Assembly: GCA_041640595.1 (NCBI GenBank)
Contig: JBEPZY010000003.1
Coordinates: forward strand, 244,773-308,772
Reading direction: 5' to 3'
DNA from: Gemmatales bacterium
GTDB lineage: Bacteria; Planctomycetota; Planctomycetia; Gemmatales; HRBIN36
DNA length: 64,000 bases
Shown here: one piece after another, positions 7,001-54,104 of the stretch
Layout of the letters: each line of letters starts with the position of its first letter
Position numbering within the stretch: the stretch's first letter is position 1
Program-made: the position numbers and the translations under genes
Notes under the pieces: generated by a model
The model's input: only the letters and a program-made list of their open reading frames with translations
Database searches by the model: none
Told to the model about the DNA's origin: nothing

Positions 7001-7484
7001 GAACACGGCAACCCATCTTTCCTTTCGTTAACGCAACGTGGAGGCGAACGACGGTCGGACTACGTCTGCCGGCGAACACGGTAACCCACCTTTCTTTTCG
7101 TCGCCGCAACGCCAAGCTGTGCCGCGATGCCTGCTTATTCGGTGGACTAAACAGTCACGTTGCCCGAGTTGGCCCGCCGTCACCGCAGCCGACAGCGTCA
7201 TCGGCTTCGCTGATTCTGGACTCCCCGCGTAATGTGGAACAGATGGGGCTAGTGGCATCCCTTGCAGGTGGGGTAATCCGCAGCAACGATGCGAATGTGA
7301 AGCTCGTCGTCGGGCTAATCCCGAATCTATAGCCGCTAACCGACACCCTCCTCGTCCGTAACGAAACGAATGTGAATCTCGTCGTCGGGCTAACGGCGTT
7401 GCCAGCAGGCGAGCTAATTCAATCCGGCAAGCGTCAGTGGTTCCGCTGTGACCAGCTAATGGCCGTTGCCTGCAGGCGACCTAA
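7001..7484. repeat. Three repeat-insert-repeat duplications: 7001-7038/7074-7111 (38 bp), 7283-7318/7358-7393 (36 bp), 7389-7417/7455-7484 (29-30 bp)
   Basis: Direct alignment by eye; unique inserts of 35, 39 and 37 bp. Confidence 0.8.
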
Positions 7485-20694: not shown

Positions 20695-21177
20695 ATGATG
20701 CCGCAACCCAATGAGCTGGCTGTGCCGGACTCCTTGAAGCCACTGCTGGCCGGATTCCCCGTGACGGTGACCTTCCCGGTCCACTGGGGAGAAATGGACG
20801 CCTATCGCCACGTGAACAACGTGGTGTATTTTCGCTACTTCGAGAGTGCGCGAGCCGCCTATTTCCGTGCGGTAAACTGGCCAGAAATCGAAATGGCAAC
20901 AGGAATCGGACCAATCCTGGCCTCAGCGGAATGCCGATTTCGCCGGGCCTTACGCTATCCCGATACGGTCACCGTGGCGATTCGTGTCGTGCCGCCTTTG
21001 GCGGAGGATCGTTTCACCATGGAGTTTCGCATCGTCAGCCATGAGCAACTCGCCCTTGCCGCCGAGGGCAAGGGAGTTATTGTCGGTTATCACTACGGCC
21101 AGATGCAAAAGGCAGCGCTTCCGACCGAATTACGGCAACGCATCGCCCAGCTGGAAAACTGGCCGGCTGAGCAATAA
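20695..21177 (+). CDS. Acyl-CoA thioesterase (4HBT/YbgC family)
   Basis: WGEMDAYRHVNNVVYFRYFESAR, LRYPD. Confidence 0.92.
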   Translation: MMPQPNELAVPDSLKPLLAGFPVTVTFPVHWGEMDAYRHVNNVVYFRYFESARAAYFRAVNWPEIEMATGIGPILASAECRFRRALRYPDTVTVAIRVVPPLAEDRFTMEFRIVSHEQLALAAEGKGVIVGYHYGQMQKAALPTELRQRIAQLENWPAEQ

Positions 21178-21380
21178 TCCATCCGCCTTTGTCCGCGGGG
21201 ATAGAAACCATTTTGCTTGGTCGAAAACATCCTGGCGCGGGGCAGGAGCATTCAGGACGCTTCCTCGTCGAACACGACCACGATAGCTTTCGACGGCAGC
21301 ACCACGACTCTGTACCCGAGCACATCCCTGGTAAGATATTCCCACCACAGAAGCTCCCGATGGAATCACCGCGCGCCAGG

Positions 21381-22394
21381 ATTATCTAGGATGCTTAGTC
21401 ATCGAAGGACGCGGATGCTTAACCTTGATTTGCCGCAGTCCATGTGAGTATTAGACAAGATGCTCGGTCATGGTAGGAACCCATTTGCTCTTGTCTCTAA
21501 CCAGGACGGAATAGGCATTAGCTTAGGAGATGTCGCTTCCGGTAGGAACTAGCTGGCGCTTCAAACGCCAAACAGAGGACGGACTAGGACTTAGCACAGC
21601 AGGTCTTGCTTTCCCTATTCGTATCCTGACAGCCGGAACAAATTCACTTAGTCCCAGTTGACTATGTGTGGATTGACATCTGCAGGAGTCTTACAATCCT
21701 AACAGCCGGAACAAGTTCCCTCAGTTCCAGTTGGCACCCCGGCGATAAAGAAGATTAGGCCCAGCAGTGTGATTTCGCTGACGTACTGATGACATATTGT
21801 TCGCCCCAGCGGTAAAGAGGATTAGGCCGAGCAGTTTTTCTGTTTTGTAATACTTGACGACGGTTGTTAACCCAGCGGTGAAGAGGATTAGGCCCAGCAG
21901 CCCCGGCTTTAAACGTCCACCAAGTTCAACCTTAGAGTTGCCACCCTGGCGGCAAAGAAGACCAAACCCAGCACCGAGACGCTACACTGTCCGCCACAGT
22001 TTGCCGGCCCAGCGGGAAAAATTGAGCTTGGCAACCAGGCGCCACACTGTCGGCCACACTTGAGGCCGATATGCAGCGATTGCAAAGAAAAGCTGCACGG
22101 GACTGGCAACCAGGCTCCACACTGTCAGCCACACTTGAGTGCATAGGGGGAATGGAAGCTCAACCACTAAATGTCCGGCGGCTTAGTAGGTTTTTAATAA
22201 TGACGCAATAACTTAGCTGGTGGAAGCTCAACCATTAAATGTCCCGCGGCGGCCAGATGCTCGCTGATAACTGGTGCCAGCGCGGGAGTGGAGGCTCAAC
22301 CATGAAATCTCACGCGAGATTGCTGGTCGACATCCGAAAATGTGGCTTCAGGGCATAGGGGGAGCGGAGGCCGAACCATGAGATGGCTCTGCGG
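21381..22394. repeat. Compound stack of CRISPR-geometry mini-arrays with six different repeat families
   Basis: Families E (21381/21450/21517, weak), F (21503/21576), A (21623-21660/21696-21733), B (21738/21805/21871/21945), C (21971/22029/22104), D (22153/22221/22289/22365); periods mostly 66-76 bp; unique, often AT-richer inserts. Confidence 0.85.
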
Positions 22395-22457
22395 TTATTC
22401 GCCCACGCTGTTCGCCCTTAGTTTGCGCCTGCACGCTGCAGGTACGTCGCTTAATGG

Positions 22458-23720
22458 CTAGTCCTTAAGCCCTTCGCGAACGTGAGCGACGCGCAGGAGT
22501 TTGCCATTTTCAGCGTCGTAATAGTACACGTGGCCTGTGCCTGCAGCCACTAGCAGAGTTTTTTCTCCAGGAACAAACGCAACATCCAGTATCTTCATCC
22601 ATAAGCCTGCTAACGGAAAATCGAGTTGTTGCAACGCCCGCTCTACCCAGCGCAGGTGCCTGTCGTCTCGAAATGCAATCCGTCCCGTACTTGCCTCTAA
22701 AACAACCAGTTCGCCAAGTGGATTGGTGACCGACGCGATGAACTTCCCCTGGCTGTCCATTCGTGCAATGAAAGGAAACACCGGGTCTTTTTCCCTTTCG
22801 GTGTAAAGCTTTAGCAAGCCATGCGTCATCGCTCTTTCCAACGTCAAGTTGTTGCGTTTATGATAATACATTTCGGAGCCAGAAAACAAATACATACCAT
22901 CGTCCGCAGGATTCACCGCGACCCAAGGATACGTACTGTTGTTGTGAAGGAGCTCATCCTTAGTCACTTTGCCTTTCTCCACGTCCAGATAACATGCGCG
23001 GATAGAGCTGGGCAAAGCAAAGAGGCTAACCCCGTCATCGGGGACGGAGCTCTTCCTCTCGCCTTTCGGCGTCTTATCATCGGGCATCGCTTGATAGATG
23101 AGCCTGATACGCCCATCAATGAGGTCACCATACAACACTTCGAGCACAGCCATCGGGACCGACCATTCATGTTGTAACCGCATACCCTTATCTTGCCGAC
23201 TATAGTAGCGCATCGCTAACTTGGAAGTTCGCAATGAGCCCCTATCAATAAGGATCAGATGGTTATCATCTAAGCTCAGCAGTTGAATATACCGATCTGG
23301 AATAGCCTCGGGCAAAGCCTCAGCGCGGGGAAGGTCAATGAGATATACAACCGACGTCGGCGGCAGAGCAGGGCGGACTGTCCCAGTAATAATCAGCCAG
23401 GGCTGCCGTCCCAAGTGGGGGCTCGGGATGACAAACCCTTGTTGCAAGTCCATAAGCGGAATCTCAATCGGTCTTTTGTTCGTTAATCGGAGCGACGGCA
23501 TTTCCCAACACGCCAAACTAAACTCGCCCGTTTCGGTAGGATTGGAGTCCATTGTGTACAAATACAGCCGCCCGTTCTGCTGTACGAATTGTCCGAGAAT
23601 CAAGCTGTCGCGACTGTGTTTCCACTGCTTGTCAGCGGCGTTCTGAGCCGGTACAATTGAATACCTGCAACCTAAACCCACCAGTACTAAGCCAGCGATA
23701 AGCATGATTCTGAAGGACAT
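22458..23720 (-). CDS. Secreted hypothetical protein, possible beta-propeller; lower GC than flanks
   Basis: 420 aa ORF with GGAGG RBS and hydrophobic signal; C-terminal ILDVAFVPGEKTLLVAAGTGHVYYYDAENGKL resembles a WD40 blade. Confidence 0.65.
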   Translation of the reverse strand: MSFRIMLIAGLVLVGLGCRYSIVPAQNAADKQWKHSRDSLILGQFVQQNGRLYLYTMDSNPTETGEFSLACWEMPSLRLTNKRPIEIPLMDLQQGFVIPSPHLGRQPWLIITGTVRPALPPTSVVYLIDLPRAEALPEAIPDRYIQLLSLDDNHLILIDRGSLRTSKLAMRYYSRQDKGMRLQHEWSVPMAVLEVLYGDLIDGRIRLIYQAMPDDKTPKGERKSSVPDDGVSLFALPSSIRACYLDVEKGKVTKDELLHNNSTYPWVAVNPADDGMYLFSGSEMYYHKRNNLTLERAMTHGLLKLYTEREKDPVFPFIARMDSQGKFIASVTNPLGELVVLEASTGRIAFRDDRHLRWVERALQQLDFPLAGLWMKILDVAFVPGEKTLLVAAGTGHVYYYDAENGKLLRVAHVREGLKD

Positions 23721-23832
23721 GGTTTGCCTCCTTTTGTAATGTTTCTGGGAGTTTTATTAACCGCCTTATAGCATCGGGTCGCCCGCTGCCCGCGCGGCGG
23801 CCGACTACCGATAGGCACCGACCGAGGTGGAG

Positions 23833-23937
23833 ACGGCCACCGTCGCAGCTCAAGCGACCGCAATCGCAGGTAAAGCAACCGCAATCGCAGCCCAAGCGAG
23901 CGCAATCGCAGGTGAAGCGACCGCAATCCAAGGTGAA
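23833..23937. repeat. Five degenerate 21-bp tandem repeats (consensus about GCGACCGCAATCGCAGGTGAA)
   Basis: Units start at 23833, 23854, 23875, 23896 and 23917. Confidence 0.8.
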
Positions 23938-24341
23938 GTTACCAAAAAACACGCCGCCGGTCAAAAGCAAAATCGAAAAATTTTCACTGCGGCGGTAATT
24001 TTCGGCAAGTTGCGGAATGGATAGAAGCTGCCGAGGCGGCGGACGGGCACGATGCGGGAATTGTGCGAAACGCGGAAACTCGGTCCAACCGTGTGTAGCC
24101 GGCGGGTGGGACAGGTACCGTCTGTGAATTTTGCCAGACTAAGAAAGGGTCGCATTGGGCGCTGGTGGCCTGGCTAATGTTCTTGTGAGACCGGCAAGCT
24201 GCGAGTTGACAGGGATCTCATTTAGCCACAATGGCCTGGCCATCCGGTACATGTGCGACACTCAGAAAGGGGCCTATTCCTGACGCGAACTGGACGATAT
24301 TTCGGCCACCGAAGAAAGGCCGCCGGATCGCCCAGAAAGAT

Positions 24342-24452
24342 TCCTGTTGCCGATGCAAACTATAATCCTGCGTCAGGCGCGCTACTGGCGAGTGAGTTCG
24401 CTGGCAGGACCCCGCATCCTATTGTCGGTGCAAACTGTAATCCTGCGTCTGG
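24342..24452. repeat. 36-bp direct repeat pair flanking a 39-bp unique insert
   Basis: 24342-24377 vs 24417-24452, 5 mismatches. Confidence 0.8.
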
Positions 24453-24574
24453 GCCAAATGTTGCTCGTGCGGAGGTGATTTCGTTTAGTCAATGCACGGG
24501 TTGCGGACAGCGCCGGTGGTTTCGCCACCAATGCGCCGGCTGATTTCGGCCAGGGTCCATGTCGTGGGCGAAGC

Positions 24575-25408
24575 TCAATGGCGGGACTGGCCCTGTGGTT
24601 TCGTTGCGGATGGTTTTTGCAGAATAGGTGGTTTGCCAGCGAGGATGTCCTGCTCCCACTGGTCGAGCAGTGGCCAGGAGACCGCACAGGTGCCGAAATC
24701 GGCCATGTACTGGTAGCGTCGCAGGCGGTCTATAGTCCGCTGGATCATCGCGCGATCGTGTGGAAAGACCGGGCCGTGACTGGGCAGCAAATACTCGACG
24801 TCGGCATCGCGGATACGTTCCAGCGACCGAATGAAATCGGGGATATTCGAGCCGTGATGGGCATCAATCACGCCGACACAGCCATCGGCAAAAAGGTTGT
24901 CGCCACTGAAAAGCAAGCGATCGAGTTGCAGGGCGATCTGGCCCGGAGTGTGTCCGGGAGTATGCCAGACCTTCAAGCGAAGTTCGCCGACTTCGATTTC
25001 GTCGCCGTCCTGCAAACGGATGTCCACGCGGCAGGGGGGCATTTCCAGAGCGATTCCCTGGGCCTTGATCTGGGCGAAGGTCAGGATCGGGTCGCCGGTC
25101 TCCAGCGCTGGAACGCTCTCTGAATGGGCGGCCACGCGCGTCTTGAACAACGCGCTGGCGCGGGCCAGACCCTGGGCGTGATCGGCGTCGGCGTGGCTGG
25201 CGATGATCATTTTGCAAGCCGATAAGCTGTAATCCATCCGCAACAGCAGGTCGGCAATCTCTTCGACAGTGTCGGCGTAACCGATGTCAATGAGGATGTA
25301 CTCCGAGCCACCGTCAACCACATAGACGTTGGCACCCAGCCGACGCCCGGCCTGGTAATTGAGTTCGAGCACACGATAATCGGGGAAAAGATATTTTCGG
25401 CGCGTCAT
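24575..25408 (-). CDS. MBL-fold metallo-hydrolase
   Basis: LIDIG, SHADADH, HTPGHTPG, LFSGD, LLPSHG. Confidence 0.88.
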   Translation of the reverse strand: MTRRKYLFPDYRVLELNYQAGRRLGANVYVVDGGSEYILIDIGYADTVEEIADLLLRMDYSLSACKMIIASHADADHAQGLARASALFKTRVAAHSESVPALETGDPILTFAQIKAQGIALEMPPCRVDIRLQDGDEIEVGELRLKVWHTPGHTPGQIALQLDRLLFSGDNLFADGCVGVIDAHHGSNIPDFIRSLERIRDADVEYLLPSHGPVFPHDRAMIQRTIDRLRRYQYMADFGTCAVSWPLLDQWEQDILAGKPPILQKPSATKPQGQSRH

Positions 25409-25453
25409 TTTCAGGGACCAGTGGTCGGTCGATAGTGACCAGTTGCTCGTGAA

Positions 25454-26041
25454 TTATGGTGTGGTTGGCAAATAGAGTCGCTGCTGAGCAATATAGCACT
25501 CGACGGCCCGCGGTACCAGATAGCGAATGGAACGCCCCTGGCGAATCCGCTGGCGTATATCGGTGCTGGAGATTTCGATGAGCGGGGATTGCACCCAGCG
25601 CACGCGAAACTCCGGCGGCAACGATTCGGGCCTGGTGTAGCCCGGCCGAGCTGCCACCACCAGCGTCGCCATCTGGGCGATAGCAAAAGGTTCGTACCAG
25701 GTCGGAAATTCGCACAAACTGTCGGCCCCCAGCAGGAGGAACCATTCCGCTTCGGGGAATTGCTCGCGCAAGTGTCGCAGCGTCTGCACTGTGTAATTGG
25801 GCACCGGCAGCCGTGTTTCGAGATCGCTTACAACAAAAGCCTCGTGTCCACCTACCGCCAAGCGCAGCATTTCCAGCCGGTGCTCCACGGATGTCAGTGG
25901 CCGATTCAGTTTGTGCGGCGGGTGTGCCGCTGGCATAAACCACACCTGCTCCAGCTCCACCTGTTCGCGGCACTGCTCGGCCACGATGAGATGGCCCAGG
26001 TGCACCGGATCGAAGGTGCCACCGAAAATTCCGATACGCAT
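25454..26041 (-). CDS. nadD: Nicotinate-nucleotide adenylyltransferase
   Basis: IGIFGGTFDPVHLGH, PPHK, LLGADSL, ISSTDIR. Confidence 0.95.
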   Translation of the reverse strand: MRIGIFGGTFDPVHLGHLIVAEQCREQVELEQVWFMPAAHPPHKLNRPLTSVEHRLEMLRLAVGGHEAFVVSDLETRLPVPNYTVQTLRHLREQFPEAEWFLLLGADSLCEFPTWYEPFAIAQMATLVVAARPGYTRPESLPPEFRVRWVQSPLIEISSTDIRQRIRQGRSIRYLVPRAVECYIAQQRLYLPTTP

Positions 26042-26188
26042 TCCACTTCTCCCGCTCAGCCGGTCGCCCGCCATCCCTCCGCTGCAGGTTTTTCAGTTGC
26101 CCGCCCTCCAGCCACGCCACATCTTTAGCAACGCAACCCTTGTGTCCGGATTCTCTGCGATTGCACTCTCTTGGCCGCCACAGACGAG

Positions 26189-26848
26189 TTAGCCCTGCGG
26201 CGTCTGGGTTGACGCACCCGGCAGCCGGAACAGTTCCGCCACCGCACACGTGAAGCCGGGCAGCACATCCTCGCCGTCCAGCACTTCATTTTCCTCCAGC
26301 ACTCGCGGTTCACGGCCTGCCCGGTACACCGTCACATTCCGGCTCTCCCCGTCCACTACCCACACCATCGCTATGCCCGCCCGCAGATACTGCTGCACCT
26401 TCCGCATCACCATCCCCAGCCGATCCGATGGCGACAACACCTCCACCACCAAATCCGGTAACCGCTTCGGTGGGCCCGCAGCAAGCTCGCTCAAAGGCAC
26501 TGTTTCCCTGTAGTAGGCGACGTCCGCTCCTCGCACCACCGGCGGATCAAGTTGCAGAACCAGACCAACGTCATTGGAAATCACCCGCCCTTGTCCCCCT
26601 CGTTCCAAATACGCTAGCAGTGCGCGTATGACCAGGACACAAACTGCCCCATGCAGCTCACCAGGCAAAGCCATGACCACGAGCCTCCCTTCGTCCAGCT
26701 CCAGTTGCCTGTCCGCATACTCCGGCCGCTCGCATAACGCCAGAAATTCCTCCACCGTCAGCAGCTTCCCCGCATCGCTTCCGGTGCGACCATCCCCGGC
26801 CGCTCGCCGCTCTTCCGTCCGTTCTGCCGCCACCGTCCCTACGCTCAT
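26189..26848 (-). CDS. Uma2-family (DUF820) PD-(D/E)XK endonuclease-like protein, copy 5
   Basis: ELDEGRLVVM..H..VRGADVAYY..PDLVVEVLSPSD..KVQQYLRAGIAMVWVVD..LPGF; ATG overlaps the upstream TGA. Confidence 0.9.
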   Translation of the reverse strand: MSVGTVAAERTEERRAAGDGRTGSDAGKLLTVEEFLALCERPEYADRQLELDEGRLVVMALPGELHGAVCVLVIRALLAYLERGGQGRVISNDVGLVLQLDPPVVRGADVAYYRETVPLSELAAGPPKRLPDLVVEVLSPSDRLGMVMRKVQQYLRAGIAMVWVVDGESRNVTVYRAGREPRVLEENEVLDGEDVLPGFTCAVAELFRLPGASTQTPQG

Positions 26849-27534
26849 CGCTGTTCCCCCTTGGCGGTCTCGCTCACTGTGCTCGCCGCCGTCGTTCCCA
26901 TCACCGTTCCAGGAAGGCGGAATAACTCGCTTACGGCACACGTGAAGCCGGGCAGCACTTCTTCCCCGTCCAGCACCTCGTTTTCCTCGAGCACTCGCGG
27001 TTCACGACCTGCCCGGTACACCGTCACATTCCGGCTCTCCCCGTCCACTACCCACACCATCGCTATGCCCGCCCGCAGATACTGCTGCACCTTCCGCATC
27101 ACCATCCCCAACCGATCCGATGGCGACAACACCTCCACCACTAAATCCGGTAACCGCTTCGCCAATCCAGGCGAGATTTCCTCGAGCCGCACATTCTCCC
27201 GGTAATATGCCAAATCCGGGGCCCGCACCGTGTCCGGATCTCGACTCAGCAGCAAACCAGGATCGTTGCAGGCTACACGACCCACACCGGTTCGCCGGAT
27301 GTAGTCAGCCAGCAGAACTCCGATGTACCAGCATTGCGTTCCGTGAGCGTCTCCCGCTGGTGGCATGACCACGAGCCTCCCTTCGTCCAGCTCCAGTTGC
27401 GTGTCCGCATACTCCGGCCGCTCGCATAACGCCAGAAACTCCTCCACCGTCAGCAGCTTCCCCGCATCGCTGCGACCATCCCCGGCCGCTCGCCGCTCTT
27501 CCGCCCGTTCTGCCGCCACTGTCCCTACGCTCAT
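26845..27534 (-). CDS. Uma2-family endonuclease-like protein, copy 4
   Basis: Same motifs; ATGA overlap. Confidence 0.9.
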   Translation of the reverse strand: MSVGTVAAERAEERRAAGDGRSDAGKLLTVEEFLALCERPEYADTQLELDEGRLVVMPPAGDAHGTQCWYIGVLLADYIRRTGVGRVACNDPGLLLSRDPDTVRAPDLAYYRENVRLEEISPGLAKRLPDLVVEVLSPSDRLGMVMRKVQQYLRAGIAMVWVVDGESRNVTVYRAGREPRVLEENEVLDGEEVLPGFTCAVSELFRLPGTVMGTTAASTVSETAKGEQR

Positions 27535-28223
27535 CGCTGTTCCCCCTTGGCGGTCTCGCTCACTGTGCTCGCCGCGGTCGTTCCCATCACCGTTCCAGGA
27601 AGGCGGAATAATTCGCTTACGGCACACGTGAAGCCAGGCAGCACATCCTCGCCGTCCAGCACCTCGTTTTCCTCGAGCACTCGCGGTTCACGACCTGCCC
27701 GGTACACCGTCACATTCCGGCTCTCCCCGTCCACTACCCACACCATCGCTATGCCCGCCCGCAAATACTGCTGCACCTTCCGCATCACCATCCCCAACCG
27801 ATCCGATGGCGACAACACCTCTACCACCAGATCGGGCAGTTCTGTCGTTACCTCATCAGCTAACTCATTCAGGTGCAGCTTGTCGCAGTAGAATGCGAAA
27901 TCAGGACGACGAACCGCTGGCGGTTCGCCGCCCAGAAGAATGCCTGACTCAGCACTTCCGACTCCCTTGCCCATCCGCCGACTGTATTCGGCGAACAACG
28001 CCCCTATTGCCCAAACGATGCCCCCGTGAAGCGGCGATGGTGGTGGCATGACGACAAGCCTCCCTTCGTCCAGCTCCAGTTGCCTGTCCGCATACTCCGG
28101 CCGCTCGCATAACGCCAGAAACTCCTCCACCGTCAGCAGCTTCCCCGCATCGCTTCCGGTGCGACCGTCCCCGACTAGTCGCCGCTCTTCCGCCCGTTCT
28201 GCTGCCACTGTCCCTACGCTCAT
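27531..28223 (-). CDS. Uma2-family endonuclease-like protein, copy 3
   Basis: Same motifs; most divergent central segment. Confidence 0.9.
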   Translation of the reverse strand: MSVGTVAAERAEERRLVGDGRTGSDAGKLLTVEEFLALCERPEYADRQLELDEGRLVVMPPPSPLHGGIVWAIGALFAEYSRRMGKGVGSAESGILLGGEPPAVRRPDFAFYCDKLHLNELADEVTTELPDLVVEVLSPSDRLGMVMRKVQQYLRAGIAMVWVVDGESRNVTVYRAGREPRVLEENEVLDGEDVLPGFTCAVSELFRLPGTVMGTTAASTVSETAKGEQR

Positions 28224-28909
28224 CGCTGTTCCCCCTTCGTTGCCTCTCCCGCTACGCTCGCCGCCGTCGTTCCCATCACCGTTCCAGGGAGGCGGAATAA
28301 TTCGCTTACGGCACACGTGAAGCCAGGCAGCACATCCTCGCCGTCCAGCACCTCGTTTTCCTCGAGCACTCGCGGTTCACGACCTGCCCGGTACACCGTC
28401 ACATTCCGGCTCTCCCCGTCCACTACCCACACCATCGCTATGCCCGCCCGCAGATACTGCTGCACCTTCCGCATCACCATCCCCAGCCGATCCGATGGCG
28501 ACAACACCTCCACCACTAAATCCGGTAACCGCTTCGCCAATCCAGGCGAGATTTCCTCGAGCCGCACATTCTCCCGATAATATGCCAAATCCGGGGCCCG
28601 CACCGTGTCCGGATCTCGGCCCAGCAACAAGCCGGGGTCATTCGTGGCCAGTCTGCCCGTTTGCGTAGCTTCAATGTGCCTGGTCAATGCCCGAATCACC
28701 AACCAACACACTGTTCCATGTAGTTCGCCCGCTGGTGGCATGACCACTAGCCTCCCTTCGTCCAGCTCCAGTTGCCTGTCCGCGTACTCCGGCCGCTCGC
28801 ACAACGCCAGAAATTCCTCCACCGTCAGCAGCTTCCCCGCATCGCTGCGACCATCCCCGGCCGCTCGCCGCTCTTCCGTCCGTTCTGCCGCCACCGTCCC
28901 TACGCTCAT
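28220..28909 (-). CDS. Uma2-family endonuclease-like protein, copy 2
   Basis: Same motifs; ATGA overlap. Confidence 0.9.
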   Translation of the reverse strand: MSVGTVAAERTEERRAAGDGRSDAGKLLTVEEFLALCERPEYADRQLELDEGRLVVMPPAGELHGTVCWLVIRALTRHIEATQTGRLATNDPGLLLGRDPDTVRAPDLAYYRENVRLEEISPGLAKRLPDLVVEVLSPSDRLGMVMRKVQQYLRAGIAMVWVVDGESRNVTVYRAGREPRVLEENEVLDGEDVLPGFTCAVSELFRLPGTVMGTTAASVAGEATKGEQR

Positions 28910-29580
28910 CGCTGTTCCCCCTTCGTTGCCTCTCCCGCTACGCTCGCCGCCGTCGTTCCCATCACCGTTCCAGGAAGGCGGAATAATTCGCTTACGGCGC
29001 ACGTGAAGCCGGGCAGCACTTCTTCCCCGTCCAGCACCTCGTTCTCCTCCAGCACACGCGGTTCACGACCTGTGCGGTACACGGTCACATTCCGGCTCTC
29101 CCCGTCCACTACCCACACCATCGCTATGCCCGCCCGCAGATACTGCTGCACCTTCCGCATCACCATCCCCAACCGATCCGATGGCGACAACACCTCCACC
29201 ACCAAATCGGGCAACCGCTTCGCCAGGCCAGGTGAAATTTCCTCCAGCCGCACATTCTCGCGGTAATATGCCAAATCCGGGGCCCGCACCGTGTCCGGAT
29301 CCCGGCTCAGCAGCAAACCAGGATCGTTGCACAGCACGGCTCCCCCTGCCCGGCGAGCGTAGTCCATCAGCAAGGCCACGATCCACGCACACTGTCTACC
29401 GTGTAGTTCCCCCGCTGGTGGCATGACGATGAGCCTCCCTTCGTCCAGCTCCAGTTGCCTGTCCGCATACTCCGGCCGCTCGCACAACGCCAGAAACTCC
29501 TCGCAAGAAATCTGCCCGCTGGAAACAGGCGATGGTGTTCGCAAACCCGATTCACGTTCGCTGACCAGGATTGCACTCAT
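28906..29580 (-). CDS. Uma2-family endonuclease-like protein, copy 1
   Basis: Same motifs; unique N-terminus; GGGGAG RBS. Confidence 0.9.
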   Translation of the reverse strand: MSAILVSERESGLRTPSPVSSGQISCEEFLALCERPEYADRQLELDEGRLIVMPPAGELHGRQCAWIVALLMDYARRAGGAVLCNDPGLLLSRDPDTVRAPDLAYYRENVRLEEISPGLAKRLPDLVVEVLSPSDRLGMVMRKVQQYLRAGIAMVWVVDGESRNVTVYRTGREPRVLEENEVLDGEEVLPGFTCAVSELFRLPGTVMGTTAASVAGEATKGEQR

Positions 29581-29718
29581 GGTGGACTCCCCGTGCGTCG
29601 GCCAAAATGACCGCCTGTGGGCATTGTAGCCGACGAAAGCCCAACCGCTCGCGTACCGCTGTGCCGCGTTTGCCGCACCGTCCGATGAAGAAAAACTCCA
29701 CTGGAGCGCGTATGTACG

Positions 29719-32301
29719 CTAGACGTCGAGGTTGCGGACTTCGAGGGCGTGTTTCTCGATGAACTCGCGGCGGGGCTCGACCTGGTCGCCCATGAGGATG
29801 CGGAACATTTCGTCGGCCTTCATAGCGTCGGAGAGTTGCACTTTCAGCAACGTTCGCCGGGCCGGGTCCAGCGTGGTTTCCCAGAGTTCCTCCGGGTTCA
29901 TTTCGCCGAGGCCTTTGAAGCGTGTGATGGTGCGACCTTTTTCGCCGAGTTGCCGAATGCGTGCGGGCAAATCACGTAAGTGCAACAGTGGCTCGGAGCG
30001 GCTGTCGGTATCGAGGAAGAATCGCGGCGGCGGTTCCTGCCCGGCAACGGACCTCGGTGGCACGAGACAGTCCGCATCCAGACTCAACTGGCGCAACTTT
30101 TCCAGGTTGCGGGCCAGCGGTTTCACCTCGTGCAATTCCTGAACCTCGATCGCTTCCTGCCCGCCGCTGGGCAGGTCGTCGGCCACTTCGAGCTCCTGCC
30201 CACGCCGATCTTTTTCTGCCCGAACGAAGGCTTCCACCTCGGCCGGTGTGTAAAACCAGTGCTCCCGAGTGCCGACCACGACACGGAATTGTGGAAGCAG
30301 GTAACCGGCCTCCGTCTTTTGCGCTCGCTCAAGCAACACCGGCAGGCTGAACCCACGCCGTTCGAGAATCCGCATTGCTTCCTCAAGCTGGCCCAGCACT
30401 TCGACCAGTTGCCGCAAGCTCTCCCCCTCAAACACGCGCGGTGGGTCGAGCTGGCGGAGCCGGGCTCCTTTCAAACCTCGTTCGAGCAGGTCGCGATTCA
30501 TTTCCTCCTGCGTTTGCACATACCGTACCTGGTTGCGTTCGGTGATCTTGTAAAGCGGAGGCTGGGCGAGGTAAACGTGTCCTTCTGCCACCAGTCGCGG
30601 CATTTGCCGATAAAAGAAGGTCAACAGCAGCGTGCGAATGTGGCTGCCGTCCACGTCGGCATCGGTGAGGATGATGATACGTTCGTAGTTGCGTTTGCTG
30701 ACGTCCTGGTCTTCGCCGATGTCCGTACCGACGGCGGCGATGATGCTGCAGATTTCGTCGTTGGAGAGCATTTTCTCGATGCGTGCTTTCTCGACGTTGA
30801 GGATTTTGCCTCGCAACGGCAGAATCGCCTGGAAAACACGATCTCGCCCGCCGTCAGCCGATCCGCCCGCGGAGTCTCCTTCGACCAGGAAGAGTTCGCA
30901 CTCATCACGATCCTTGGAAGTGCAATCCATGAGTTTGCCGGGCAGACCGTTGCTATTGAGGATATTTTTCCTCTCCTTGAGCTGTTTTCTGGCGCGGGCT
31001 GCGGCTTCCCGTGCCTCTGCGGTCAGGGCTACCCGCTGCACGATCTTTTTCGCCACCTGCGGGTTCTCTTCCAGGAACCGGCTGAGATGTTCATTGACCA
31101 CGCTGGTTACAATGCCTTCCACTTCGGGATTGTTGAGGCGGACCTTGGTCTGGCTCTCAAACTGCGGATGAGCCACGCGCACACTGACGATGGCCGTCAG
31201 CCCTTCTCGGAAATCCTCGCCAGTCAGGCTCAGTCCTTCCTTGAGCAGGTTTTCCCGGCCGGCGTAGAAATTCACCGTTCGCGTCAGGGCCGAGCGGAAC
31301 CCCGTCAGATGCGTTCCGCCCAGCGGCGTATGCACGTTGTTGACGTAGGAATGGACGCGTTCCTCCTCGCCGGATGTGTACTGGAACGCCACTTCTACCC
31401 ACACTCCCTCCCGAACCTCGTGGATGTAGATCGGCTTATGCAGTGTGGTTTCGCCGCGGTTCAGCCACTCCACGAACTCCACAATCCCGCCGTCGTAGCG
31501 GTACACTTCCTCCCGACCGTCCCGCTCGTCGGTGAGTTTGATAGTCAAGCCTTTGTTGAGGAAAGCCAGTTCCCGGAGCCGGCTGGCCAGCGTTTCAAAG
31601 TCCACGCTCAACTGGCCAAAAATTTCCGGGTCCGGCTTGAAGGTAATGCGTGTACCAGTACGCCGGCTGACACCGATTTCCCGCACCTCGCTGACGGGTA
31701 CGCCCCGCTCGTAGTCCTGCTGGAACACCTTACCGTCGCGGCGAACCTCCACTTCCAGCCATTCGCTCAGGGCGTTCACTGCCTTGACGCCGATGCCATG
31801 CAGGCCTGCGGACATGGCGTAAACGTCCTTTTTGAACTTTCCCCCCGCGCCAACCTCACACATCACCAGTTCGAGCGTGTTGCGGCCCTCCGTTGGATGC
31901 ATGCCGACCGGGATGCCCCGTCCGTCATCGGCGACGGTTACACTGCCGTCCACGCCGATCTTGACATGGATGTTTTTGCAGTAGCCAGCCATGGCCTCGT
32001 CCACGCTGTTGTGCACCAGCTCATAGACGAGGTGGTGCAAACCACGCGGCCCGACGTCGCCGATGTACATACCGGGATTGGCGCGGACGTGCGCAGCGTT
32101 TTTGAGCACCTGAATGTTGGCGGCGGTGTAGCCACCATCTCCAGCGTGCAACTGCTCCTGGCCGTCCGCGTGTTCTGCAACACCAGCCGAATCCGCAGAC
32201 TGCTCCGAATCCCGCGTCGCATCTTGCACACTCGCAGACGCAGCGCGTTCCTGCACCGCAAGCGTTTCCGAATCGTCCATTCGCATCCGTTTTTCGTCCA
32301 T
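29719..32301 (-). CDS. gyrB: DNA gyrase subunit B (with TOPRIM insertion)
   Basis: PGMYIG, ELVHNSVDE, DDGRGIP, GLHGIG, VEGDSAGGSA, PLRGKILN, DADVDGSHI, RFKGLGEMN. Confidence 0.96.
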   Translation of the reverse strand: MDEKRMRMDDSETLAVQERAASASVQDATRDSEQSADSAGVAEHADGQEQLHAGDGGYTAANIQVLKNAAHVRANPGMYIGDVGPRGLHHLVYELVHNSVDEAMAGYCKNIHVKIGVDGSVTVADDGRGIPVGMHPTEGRNTLELVMCEVGAGGKFKKDVYAMSAGLHGIGVKAVNALSEWLEVEVRRDGKVFQQDYERGVPVSEVREIGVSRRTGTRITFKPDPEIFGQLSVDFETLASRLRELAFLNKGLTIKLTDERDGREEVYRYDGGIVEFVEWLNRGETTLHKPIYIHEVREGVWVEVAFQYTSGEEERVHSYVNNVHTPLGGTHLTGFRSALTRTVNFYAGRENLLKEGLSLTGEDFREGLTAIVSVRVAHPQFESQTKVRLNNPEVEGIVTSVVNEHLSRFLEENPQVAKKIVQRVALTAEAREAAARARKQLKERKNILNSNGLPGKLMDCTSKDRDECELFLVEGDSAGGSADGGRDRVFQAILPLRGKILNVEKARIEKMLSNDEICSIIAAVGTDIGEDQDVSKRNYERIIILTDADVDGSHIRTLLLTFFYRQMPRLVAEGHVYLAQPPLYKITERNQVRYVQTQEEMNRDLLERGLKGARLRQLDPPRVFEGESLRQLVEVLGQLEEAMRILERRGFSLPVLLERAQKTEAGYLLPQFRVVVGTREHWFYTPAEVEAFVRAEKDRRGQELEVADDLPSGGQEAIEVQELHEVKPLARNLEKLRQLSLDADCLVPPRSVAGQEPPPRFFLDTDSRSEPLLHLRDLPARIRQLGEKGRTITRFKGLGEMNPEELWETTLDPARRTLLKVQLSDAMKADEMFRILMGDQVEPRREFIEKHALEVRNLDV

Positions 32302-32456
32302 GGCTCTCCTGCCCAGAAGGTTTGTCGTATCCGTGTGGCCGGGTCTATCCCCGACCGGTCGGTTTCAGTTGGCCACAACCCGATGCGTGCCTGGCTTATC
32401 GAGTCGGGAACCCTGGGCTTATTCGGGCAACCGCACCGTGACCGTCGCGGTGCCCG

Positions 32457-32813
32457 TCAGCCCAGCCGAAATCGCAAGCGCGTTACCAGGCCCGGCCCCA
32501 GTTCTTCCTGCAATCGTTCCAGCAGCCGCACCGCCTCAAACTGTGCCAGCCGGTGCAGCAACGCGGCATCGGAAGCGATGATTTCCAGCACACCCCTTCG
32601 CCAGGCACCGAGACGCAATTTCTGAGCCTGCTCTGCTCCCACAATTTCGACCCACGCCGATTCCAGACGCCGACGGGCCTCCACTCGCCGCAGACCGCGA
32701 CGCCAGATCACCTCGGCGACCGCTTCTGCCAGGGGCACGGGGCCGGTCTGCCCGGAACCATCCCCTTCGTACCCGCAGCCTCGGCTGGGCCGCACTTGTT
32801 CTTTCGCCATCAC
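32457..32813 (-). CDS. DUF721/DciA-family protein
   Basis: W.EIVG..A..GVLEIIASD..L..L..LRFRLG; position between dnaN and gyrB. Confidence 0.8.
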   Translation of the reverse strand: MMAKEQVRPSRGCGYEGDGSGQTGPVPLAEAVAEVIWRRGLRRVEARRRLESAWVEIVGAEQAQKLRLGAWRRGVLEIIASDAALLHRLAQFEAVRLLERLQEELGPGLVTRLRFRLG

Positions 32814-42536: not shown

Positions 42537-42873
42537 CACGGCGGGCTGACGCCCACCGCTCTTGGTCGTGCGTGCGTATGTGCAGCGTAAAAATCGTTTT
42601 TTCGCCGGCAGAGATGCGCGTTCCGCCACAAGAGCGGGGGGCGTTAGCCCCCCGTGGCGCCGATAAACGCGAATGCAACGGCAATCCGCACACACACCGT
42701 CGGCGGTCTGCCGACGAATAGCGGGCGTGTGTGCGGATGCGATTTTGCCGGCCCACGGCGGGCTGACGCCCGCCGCTCTTGTTCGGATGTGCGGATGTGC
42801 AGCGTAAAAATCGTTTTTTCGCCGGCAGAGATGCGCGTTCGACCGCAAGAGCGGGGGGCGTTAGCCCCCCGTG
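42537..42873. repeat. REP/REPIN cluster 1 (four alternating 26-bp hairpin REPs, ~217-bp unit duplicated)
   Basis: CACGGCGGGC-TGAC-GCCC(A/G)CCGCTCT at 42537 and 42754; inverted AGAGCGGGGGGC-GTTA-GCCCCCCGTG at 42631 and 42848. Confidence 0.85.
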
Positions 42874-43044
42874 GTGTTGCTCTACGCGATGGCAACCCTA
42901 AGGCGACCACAATGGCCTACTGATTTAGTAACGCGTTAGCCCCCCGTGGTGTTGCTCTACGCGATGGCAACGACGGGGTCTGCAAAGTTATCGTGGACCC
43001 CGACGGTCGTTAGCCCCCGTGGTGTCGCTCCACGCGATGGCAAC
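42859..43044. repeat. CRISPR-like mini-array: three 37-38 bp repeats, two unique spacers (37 and 36 bp); repeat derived from a half-REP plus flank
   Basis: CGTTAGCCCCCCGTGGTGTTGCTCTACGCGATGGCAAC at 42859-42896 and 42934-42971 (identical) and 43008-43044 (3 differences). Confidence 0.85.
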
Positions 43045-43156
43045 GGCGGTCGGCACACGTACTCTCGGCGGTCTTCCGAGCGTTCGCGCTCGGGCCGGAT
43101 AGTACTTACGGGCGATCGTAGCAACCGCGAGGGGGTTTGCGAACCGGAGCAGAGCG

Positions 43157-53905: not shown

Positions 53906-54104
53906 GTGGTAATGGCGTGGATCGTGGTACCGCGGAATGGAGCTCCACGAGTCAGAGACGCAGTGCACACGGAGGGATGTGGTAATGGCGTGGGTCGCAA
54001 TGCCGCCAGATGGGGCGGTACAATGACAGCGTTCGGGCCGGCTGGCTGTCTCTGGCACACCAAGAAGGTCGCGATGCCGCCAGATGGGTCGGTACAATGA
54101 CAGC
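53906..54104. repeat. Two offset repeat-insert-repeat duplications upstream of pabB
   Basis: 53993-54030/54067-54104 (38 bp, 2 mismatches, 36-bp insert) and 53906-53942/53979-54015 (37 bp, more diverged). Confidence 0.8.

What the first reader, a model, noticed from the sequence alone, without database searches (positions are those of the whole stretch)
21381..22394. 1-kb array of arrays: six abutting or overlapping repeat families with nested insertions
This ORF-free, lower-GC region contains: A 21623-21660/21696-21733 (38 bp, 5 mismatches, 35-bp insert); B 30-bp cores at 21738, 21805, 21871, 21945; C 22029-22064/22104-22139 (36 bp, 2 mismatches, 39-bp insert) plus a diverged copy at 21971; D 30-bp cores at 22153, 22221, 22289, 22365; and weaker E and F families upstream. 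The last copy of each family abuts or overlaps the first copy of the next. The outer copies share longer matches (21729-21767 with 21936-21974; 22134-22174 with 22346-22386) than the inner copies do, consistent with an older long duplication followed by ~30-bp duplications nested inside. Inference: about a dozen insertion events expanded a short ancestral sequence into a hotspot; alternatively it is an unknown multi-repeat guide-RNA array.
Basis: partly seen in the sequence, partly recalled or inferred. Interest (0 to 1): 0.85.

Follow-up and report, generated by a model that had tools for sequence, protein, structure and literature searches.

The report
Misplaced CRISPR spacers stacked in transposon
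The 'array of arrays' is most likely a dead IS5-type transposon fragment that the cell's two CRISPR spacer-inserting enzymes hit by mistake about a dozen times, nearly tripling its length and growing small CRISPR-like arrays out of ordinary transposase DNA.

Summary
The repeats are real (15 pairs vs 0.4 in shuffles). The region 21212-22436 is a decayed, internally deleted IS5-family remnant. Sibling copies in the same genome act as empty alleles. Removing 11 locus-specific duplication-plus-insert units shrinks it from 1225 to 449 bp, 74% identical to a sibling. Each unit is about 30 bp duplicated with period 66-69, or about 37 bp with period 73-76. These are the dimensions of the genome's two CRISPR arrays (type I-B Cas1, 30-bp repeat; RT-associated Cas1, 37-bp repeat). 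347 of 393 low-copy duplication-insert pairs outside the arrays fall in these two classes. A congener with only the RT-type Cas1 shows 0 of 22 at periods 64-68. One insert in a sibling IS copy matches a contig targeted by the I-B array. Best reading: iterated, nested off-target Cas1-Cas2 integration into neutral DNA, not a guide-RNA system. This scan noted the genome-wide scars before on other DNA of this genome; I reached the reading before looking. This locus adds nesting of both classes, re-use of an ectopic repeat, IS enrichment and strain polymorphism. No source was found for this window's own inserts, and the enzyme is inferred, not shown.

The parts
21212..22436 (+). Internally deleted IS5-family remnant, expanded from about 449 bp to 1225 bp; right terminal repeat missing in this genome
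   Evidence: sibling fragments hit NF033579 (IS5 transposase) below cut-off; full-length PF01609 homologs
21212..21230 (+). Left terminal inverted repeat of the IS (its reverse complement closes sibling copies)
21242..21405 (+). Unit H: ancient duplication shared with sibling copies (period 67 there; 134 here because unit G landed inside it)
   Evidence: 22/30 at d=134 here; 22/30 and 20/30 at d=67 in C1:296k and C1:328k
21277..21373 (+). Unit G: about 30-bp duplication, 37-bp insert, period 67 (weak, 21/30)
   Evidence: (67 extra bases vs C1:328.7k)
21380..21478 (+). Unit F: about 30-bp duplication, about 39-bp insert, period 69 (weak, 21/30)
   Evidence: (136 = 67+69 extra vs C1:296.5k)
21503..21612 (+). 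Unit E: 36-37-bp duplication of transposase 5' codons, 36-bp insert, period 73 (27/37)
21623..21733 (+). Unit A: 37-38-bp duplication of transposase codons, 35-36-bp insert, period 73 (33/38)
   Evidence: profile of 31 transposases hits 21601-21669 (profile 20-42, iE 0.0036, score 5.4 vs max 2.5 in 100 shuffles)
21730..21974 (+). Unit B outer: 37-38-bp duplication (21730-21767 / 21937-21974), insert 21901-21936, original period 74 (207 minus 67 minus 66)
21738..21900 (+). Unit B inner neo-array: three 30-bp repeats (21738, 21805, 21871) with 37- and 36-bp inserts, periods 67 and 66
21971..22061 (+). C0/C1 pair, period 60: does not fit either class; inferred to be an older repeat-plus-insert unit shared with sibling copies (periods 57 and 66 there), duplicated whole
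22029..22139 (+). Unit C: 36-37-bp duplication, 38-39-bp insert, period 75 (34/36)
   Evidence: (287 = 75+212 extra vs C2:80k)
22137..22385 (+). Unit D outer: about 37-bp duplication, about 39-bp insert (about 22311-22348), original period 76 (212 minus 68 minus 68)
   Evidence: (212 extra vs C1:329.7k)
22153..22318 (+). Unit D inner neo-array: three 30-bp repeats (22153, 22221, 22289) with two 38-bp inserts, periods 68 and 68; nearly the same register was hit with different inserts in two other IS copies
   Evidence: a different 36-base insert between D-type copies in run X4
22367..22436 (+). Transposase 3' end and right flank of the IS
   Evidence: 56/73, 62/81, 42/52 identity to siblings
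22458..23720 (-). Adjacent 420-aa gene with an N-terminal hydrophobic, lipoprotein-like start; not part of the feature
   Evidence: no Pfam hit over cut-off, 2 homologs; the 81%-identical homolog in L017 has no array beside it

Best explanation
A non-autonomous IS5-family fragment became neutral DNA. The host's two adaptation modules (type I-B Cas1b-Cas2-Cas4 with a 30-bp ruler; RT-associated Cas1-Cas2 with a 37-bp ruler) repeatedly made full-site integrations of spacer-sized DNA into it. Each event duplicated one repeat length of whatever sequence was hit. Later events landed next to or inside earlier ones, and twice (B, D) re-used the same 30-bp ectopic repeat, giving three-repeat neo-arrays. 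SHOWN: IS ancestry, empty alleles, insert and duplication lengths, match to both canonical arrays, the genome-wide bimodal pattern, and class absence tracking Cas1 content in a congener. INFERRED: that Cas1-Cas2 is the enzyme, which module made which unit, the order of events, and that the array has no function.
For: (1) Empty alleles: this copy has 67, 136 (67+69), 74, 212 (76+68+68), 287 (75+212) and 346 extra bases against four sibling copies; collapse gives 449 bp, 285/383 identical to C1:296.5k. (2) Canonical arrays: 37-bp repeat with periods 70-77 (peak 73-74, 244 spacers); 30-bp repeat with periods 65-70 (peak 66, 341 spacers). Cas1, Cas2, RT, Cas1b and Cas4 are present. (3) 347 of 393 low-copy pairs outside arrays have period 64-69 (160, duplication mode 30) or 71-77 (187, mode 37-38); all 11 window units pair the expected duplication length with the expected period. 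(4) G001 has one Cas1 (354-aa frame, like the RT-linked one) and no 30-bp repeat: 22 pairs in 357 kb, periods 69-76, none at 64-68, vs 153 of 347 in G000. G003 has both Cas1 types: 3 at 66-67 and 3 at 72-74 in 506 kb. (5) Sources: an insert in a sibling IS copy (C2:407699, copied at C3:561426) matches contig C15 at 28/30; C15 is hit by 33 canonical 30-bp-array spacers with CCN flanks in 26 of 34 alignments; 0-1 hits in 50 shuffles of 310 inserts. Insert C3:643266 is 37/37 identical to a chromosomal gene with CCN adjacent. Insert C2:174386 matches a canonical spacer 30/31. (6) Sharp ectopic duplications end in AC like the repeats: 14/38 and 14/39 vs 8-10% background. (7) Only 15 of 347 lie in called genes; IS remnants carry 3.4 per kb vs 0.33 per kb non-coding. 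(8) In vitro precedent: P. furiosus Cas1-Cas2 makes full-site integrations at non-CRISPR sites 30 bp apart (PMC6698737, passages read).
Against: No source was found for any of this window's own inserts: three 17-mer scans of viral contigs gave 22 hits, none extending beyond 24/36, and 11 inserts had no genome hit. The window's duplicated segments match the canonical repeats only at background level (5-13 of 30 or 37). No leader similarity and no exact IHF consensus were found in the IS. The C0/C1 pair (period 60) fits neither class. Units E, F and G are weak (21/30 to 27/37); only 6 of the 11 pass the genome-wide threshold. The C15 match has no clear CCN flank, and two other chromosome-derived inserts are ambiguous for PAM. 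G014 and G019 have Cas1 but 0 pairs in 120 kb each, and G003 has few, so Cas1 presence alone does not predict scars. G001 is 87% complete and only 30 of about 370 contigs were scanned. The 347 include some false positives (5 leucine-rich-repeat codon repeats on C4, tandem copies on C8, one degenerate orphan repeat on C3).
Confidence: 0.88

Rival explanations
1. The duplications were made by another integrase or transposase-like enzyme (or by RT-templated insertion) that happens to give 30- and 37-bp target duplications, not by the CRISPR adaptation modules.
For: Targets barely resemble the repeats and no leader is present; enrichment in an IS family; an RT sits beside one Cas1; 4 tyrosine recombinases are in the genome.
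Against: Both classes reproduce the period distributions of the two arrays; class presence follows Cas1 type in G001 and G003; inserts come from the same contig and PAM type as canonical spacers; the same scars occur all over non-IS non-coding DNA.
Confidence: 0.05
2. Made by off-target integration but since recruited: the neo-arrays are transcribed and processed into working guides or regulatory RNAs.
For: The array is kept in runs from 4 studies with extra or different inserts; an RNA run's contigs cover the region; repeats were re-used at B and D.
Against: Repeat copies decay (70-94% identity); families are unrelated to each other and to the Cas6-type repeat end; sibling IS copies carry scars at other positions; the only sigma-70-like sites found lie outside the array and are at chance level; no Rfam match over the array; contig depth cannot show expression.
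Confidence: 0.05
3. An unknown guide-RNA array serving the adjacent 420-aa gene.
For: Adjacency and lower GC shared with the gene.
Against: The repeats are IS5 transposase sequence; the homolog in L017 has no array; the protein looks secreted, with no nuclease domain.
Confidence: 0.01
4. Ordinary replication slippage or tandem duplication followed by local divergence.
For: May explain the C0/C1 pair and the tandem amplification seen at C8:39335-39770.
Against: Inserts are unrelated to the flanks and absent from siblings; lengths are sharply bimodal.
Confidence: 0.01

Closest known systems
Non-canonical (off-target) spacer integration producing 'neo-CRISPR' loci (Nivala, Shipman and Church 2018, Nat Microbiol 3:310; not held in the library, seen only as cited in PMC11788318, bioRxiv 10.1101/148544, PMC9456107 and PMC6698737)
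   Same: Cas1-Cas2 inserts a spacer at a non-array site and duplicates a repeat length of target; can seed new arrays.
   Different: Here the events are fixed in a wild genome, come in two size classes nested in one another, re-use ectopic repeats, and show little resemblance to the repeat and no exact IHF consensus.
P. furiosus Cas1-Cas2 in vitro integration at non-CRISPR sites (PMC6698737, passages read)
   Same: Full-site integration 30 bp apart, leader-independent, with G/C borders; G/C at both borders in 21 of 38 sharp 30-bp scars here vs 33% background.
   Different: In vitro on plasmids; those sites shared several repeat bases, whereas the window's targets match the repeat only at background level.
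IS5-family insertion sequences and their non-autonomous derivatives (NF033579, PF01609)
   Same: Terminal inverted repeat, DDE transposase remnants, multiple copies.
   Different: Here the element is only the substrate: no intact ORF, internal deletion, right end lost; it carries and has copied spacer-like inserts between loci.
Canonical CRISPR arrays (the host's own type I-B and RT-linked arrays)
   Same: Repeat and spacer lengths, unique inserts, three-repeat runs.
   Different: Six or more unrelated repeats, no leader, no ATTGAAAC end, no cas genes nearby, decaying copies.

Membership tests
Off-target Cas1-Cas2 integration (neo-CRISPR) | Target duplication equal to the host repeat length | tested here: met
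   30 bp with periods 66-69 and 36-38 bp with periods 73-76 in all 11 units; host repeats 30 and 37 bp
Off-target Cas1-Cas2 integration (neo-CRISPR) | Unique insert of spacer length, absent from the empty allele | tested here: met
   inserts 35-39 bp vs canonical 33-40
Off-target Cas1-Cas2 integration (neo-CRISPR) | Host encodes matching Cas1-Cas2 | tested here: met
Off-target Cas1-Cas2 integration (neo-CRISPR) | Insert traceable to a protospacer with PAM | tested here: inconclusive
   none for this window; one clear case elsewhere in the genome (37/37 with CCN) and one match to the targeted contig C15 in a sibling IS copy
Off-target Cas1-Cas2 integration (neo-CRISPR) | Target resembles repeat or leader, or has an IHF site | tested here: inconclusive
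   weak AC-end bias genome-wide; background level in the window; no leader match or exact IHF consensus, motif recalled
Off-target Cas1-Cas2 integration (neo-CRISPR) | Catalysis by Cas1-Cas2 shown directly | not testable with these tools
   needs biochemistry or genetics
Canonical CRISPR array | One near-identical repeat throughout | tested here: not met
   six or more unrelated families, 70-94% identity within pairs
Canonical CRISPR array | Leader and repeat recognisable by the host's Cas proteins | tested here: not met
Canonical CRISPR array | Transcribed and processed into crRNA | not testable with these tools
   only contigs were available for the RNA run
IS5 family element | DDE transposase of the IS5 type | tested here: inconclusive
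   sibling fragments hit NF033579 at E 5e-8 to 8e-7, below cut-off; 29 of 31 full-length homologs carry PF01609; the window holds only short pieces
IS5 family element | Terminal inverted repeats | tested here: inconclusive
   left end present at 21212-21230; both ends in siblings; right end missing here but seen as a loose end at 22436 in runs X3 and X16
IS5 family element | Intact transposase ORF (autonomy) | tested here: not met
   no ORF of 80 aa or more; internal deletion
IS5 family element | Short target-site duplication at element ends | not tested
   right end is lost in this copy
Non-CRISPR guide arrays (TIGR-type; features recalled) | Regular conserved repeats next to an RNA-guided effector gene | tested here: not met
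Integron attC array (features recalled) | Imperfect palindromic sites flanking cassettes | tested here: not met
   one inverted pair only, outside the units; no Rfam match over the array

The most novel reading that the evidence does not exclude
This locus is a natural snapshot of CRISPR array genesis with repeat switching. Once an ectopic site has taken a spacer it is preferentially re-used, and adjacent sequence becomes the next repeat. Two unrelated integrases take turns, and IS copies act as intrinsic hotspots that carry acquired virus-derived spacers around the genome. CRISPR adaptation would then be a major, ongoing mutagenic force that builds new arrays from arbitrary DNA, with some possibly processed into guides.
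Probability: 0.3. Interest if true: 0.82.

Novelty: new variant of a known kind. Interest (0 to 1): 0.62.

Why it matters
How new CRISPR arrays and new repeat sequences arise is open. The citing literature I could read describes off-target integration as a laboratory result with only circumstantial natural cases (10.1101/148544, passage read). This locus gives a datable, nested natural record with built-in empty-allele controls. It shows two rulers (30 and 37 bp) acting on the same 450 bp, re-use of an ectopic repeat, and variation among wild strains. It makes integrase specificity, and the role of leaders and host factors, directly testable with two named Cas1-Cas2 modules, one RT-linked. It also warns that such scars can be mistaken for new guide-RNA systems.

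Tried and rejected
Hydrophobic peptides on the minus strand of family B suggested signal-peptide cassettes; rejected because spacings break frame and the plus strand is transposase-derived. Integron attC reading rejected. Rfam: one chance hit outside the array. Promoter and terminator counts at shuffle level. No tRNA in the window. The IS DNA was not found in 40 relatives, and the array was not found in 60 relatives, where only the thioesterase matched; in three congeners the thioesterase is followed by DNA matching window 32.8-33.9 kb. Viral scans for 3 of 11 inserts gave only chance 17-mer hits. No relatives of a C15 protein in viral contigs and no PHROG hits for 8 C15 proteins. Leader and IHF searches negative. 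Loose ends in X3 and X4 that look like empty A and C alleles were not counted as evidence, since homogenised repeat copies or sibling IS copies explain them too. The RNA run cannot show expression or processing. The 36-base insert seen in run X4 was not searched for a source. Growth polarity of B and D could not be settled. Literature: 8 searches listed no paper reporting genome-wide natural scars or nested scars in an IS. The library lacks most subscription papers and Nivala 2018 itself, and no supplements were read.

Full report
Observation. The repeat families are at the coordinates given. Fifteen ungapped pairs passed the score cut in 21150-22480, against a mean of 0.38 and a maximum of 2 in 60 dinucleotide shuffles. 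No ORF of 80 aa or more lies in the region, Rfam has no match over it, and only one inverted pair was found, outside the units.

Ancestor. BLAST against the own genome (G000, 4.45 Mb, 42 contigs) found the same segments, in the same order but without most inserts, at seven other loci. A wider search gave 14 stretches. Siblings begin and end with an inverted repeat and hold transposase fragments: PF01609 hits below cut-off, NF033579 IS5 transposase at E 5e-8 to 8e-7 below cut-off, and 31 full-length homologs, 29 with PF01609. A profile of those 31 hits window 21601-21669 (iE 0.0036; score 5.4 vs a maximum of 2.5 in 100 shuffles), with a weaker echo at the second A copy. So families E and A are duplicated transposase 5' codons, and D lies at its 3' end. 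The left terminal repeat is at 21212-21230; the right one is missing here.

Empty alleles. Global alignments to four siblings put the extra bases of this copy at 67, 136, 74, 212, 287 and 346, which equal sums of the unit periods (67; 67+69; 73+1; 76+68+68; 75+212; 60+75+212-1). Removing 11 units (G67, F69, E73, A73, B-outer 74, B 67 and 66, C75, D-outer 76, D 68 and 68) leaves 449 of 1225 bp, 285 of 383 aligned bases identical to C1:296526-296985. An older unit (H, period 67) is shared with two siblings and contains G. The C0/C1 pair (period 60) does not fit either class. I infer it is an old unit shared with siblings (periods 57 and 66 there) and duplicated whole.

Agent. The genome has two Cas1 and two Cas2 genes. 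One Cas1 is type I-B, with Cas4, Cas3, Cas5, Cas7 and a III-B Cmr module; the other lies behind a group II-like RT. Their arrays have a 30-bp repeat (344 copies, periods 65-70, peak 66) and a 37-bp repeat (246 copies, periods 70-77, peak 73-74). Outside the arrays, 523 duplication-insert pairs were found; 130 multi-copy ones were dropped. Of the remaining 393, 160 have period 64-69 (duplication mode 30) and 187 have period 71-77 (mode 37-38). A few of these 347 are false (five leucine-rich-repeat codon repeats, tandem copies on C8, one orphan repeat). In the window every unit pairs the expected duplication length with the expected period, though only 6 of 11 pass the genome-wide threshold.

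Natural experiment. G001 has one Cas1 of the RT-linked size and no 30-bp repeat (87% complete). In 357 kb (30 contigs of about 370) it has 22 pairs with periods 69-76 and none at 64-68, against 153 of 347 in G000. G003 has both Cas1 types and shows 3 at 66-67 and 3 at 72-74 in 506 kb. G002 shows 2 (74, 75) in 215 kb, G004 2 (71, 75) in 186 kb, and G010 2 low-complexity pairs at 66 in 175 kb. G014, G006 and G019 show 0 in 120, 140 and 120 kb, although G014 and G019 have Cas1. The trait is therefore lineage-specific and variable.

Sources. Contig C15 (9.6 kb, no PHROG hits) is matched by 33 of the 341 spacers of the main 30-bp arrays; 26 of 34 alignments have a 5' CCN flank. Among 310 ectopic inserts tested, one in a sibling IS copy (C2:407699, also at C3:561426) matches C15 at 28/30 without a clear CCN; shuffled inserts gave 0-1 hits in 50 rounds. 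One insert is 37/37 identical to a chromosomal gene with CCN adjacent; two more chromosome-derived inserts are ambiguous for PAM. One matches a canonical spacer 30/31. None of this window's inserts was traced: 11 were compared with the genome and held loci, and 3 were scanned in viral contigs.

Specificity and clustering. Sharp scars end in AC, as both repeats do, in 14 of 38 and 14 of 39 cases vs 8-10% background (both copies were scored in the real set, which inflates it slightly). The window's own targets match the repeats only at background level, and no leader or exact IHF consensus was found (motif recalled). Only 15 of 347 scars lie in genes called by a crude codon model; density is 0.33 per kb non-coding and 0.44-0.51 in long blocks. 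The IS remnants carry 28 in 8.3 kb (3.4 per kb); by my tally about 20 are independent once tandem and shared copies are removed. Three of the four densest 1.3-kb windows belong to this IS family. Six strict events in this block have a Poisson probability of 6e-5 at the long-block rate, before correction for the number of blocks. Nearly the same register near the transposase 3' end was hit with different inserts in C1:321769, C2:407699 and window D, and C1:328964-329190 holds a four-repeat neo-array. Some inserts are shared between IS copies, so the element or segments of it moved after acquiring them. Whether the excess reflects age, neutrality or true preference is not settled.

Population. 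L016 is 99.98% identical over 13.9 kb and has the same array. Twenty runs, mostly hot-spring or mat metagenomes, hold part of the stretch. In four runs from four studies laid at 88% likeness (contigs only), X4 has a 36-base insert not in the window between D-type copies, X5 and X16 have foreign letters before D3, and X3 and X16 show a further duplicated segment at 22400-22453 plus the IS right end. These suggest extra units in other strains but could come from paralogous copies.

Neighbour. The 420-aa gene has 2 homologs and no Pfam hit over cut-off. Its 81%-identical homolog in L017 has no array beside it.

Comparison. It works like off-target spacer integration. Nivala et al. 2018 was not held; I saw it only as cited in passages of PMC11788318, 10.1101/148544, PMC9456107 and PMC6698737, and in the reference list and one passage of PMC11394691. 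PMC6698737 passages describe leader-independent full-site integration 30 bp apart at non-CRISPR sites. PMC8616872 passages held nothing relevant. It is not a canonical CRISPR array (no common repeat, no leader). Eight literature searches listed no report of such natural scars at genome scale, within the library's limits. Five earlier notes of this scan reached the same genome-wide reading on other DNA; I had formed it. Look-ups for a nested transposon case or look-alike stretches returned nothing.

Verdict. A real feature and a new variant of a known process. Confidence in off-target Cas1-Cas2 integration is 0.88; function is unlikely; interest 0.62.

Noticed in passing
G000 contig C15 (L096:1-9585): 9.6-kb, 50% GC contig matched by 33 recent type I-B spacers with CCN flanks; eight ORFs without PHROG hits and no relative in viral contigs for the one tested; probably an undescribed small virus or plasmid of this host.
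   Followed up: partly
G000 C1:356211-359617 (L023): Cas2, a separate 550-aa group II-like RT and Cas1 in front of the 246-repeat array, with no effector genes seen in the 20 kb upstream; the III-B Cmr module lies on C8 beside type I-B.
   Followed up: partly
G000 C1:328964-329190 (L018): Four copies of one 30-bp transposase segment with three unique inserts (periods 66, 68, 67): the longest neo-array seen; the first insert is shared with C1:296755.
   Followed up: partly
G000 C8:39335-39770 (L020): A 148-bp block of two period-74 units tandemly amplified inside another copy of the IS.
   Followed up: no
window 7001-7111, 7285-7393, 24342-24452, 42858-43049, 53993-54104: Further single duplication-insert scars (periods 73-75) in the same window.
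   Followed up: partly
window 26189-29580: Five tandem Uma2-type genes with near-identical 3' halves and variable middles (Pfam checked for the first only).
   Followed up: no
window 23771-24078: 21-bp tandem repeat region with a close copy at G000 C3:617593-617901.
   Followed up: no
window 21180-32800: In three congeners the thioesterase gene is followed directly by DNA matching window 32.8-33.9 kb, so gene order differs here.
   Followed up: partly
L053:3767-4280 (G001, contig with Cas1): Three perfect duplications (26/26, 37/37, 37/37) within about 4 kb of that genome's array, suggesting recent off-target events near the cas locus.
   Followed up: no
G000 C3:328836 and C20:1210-1581: An orphan two-repeat variant of the 30-bp repeat whose spacer matches C15 with a CCG flank, and a six-repeat array with a third 30-bp repeat variant.
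   Followed up: partly
G000 C3:60599, C4:173690, C5:104343: Period-66 scars inside long ORFs that keep the frame, possibly adding 22 residues to real proteins.
   Followed up: no
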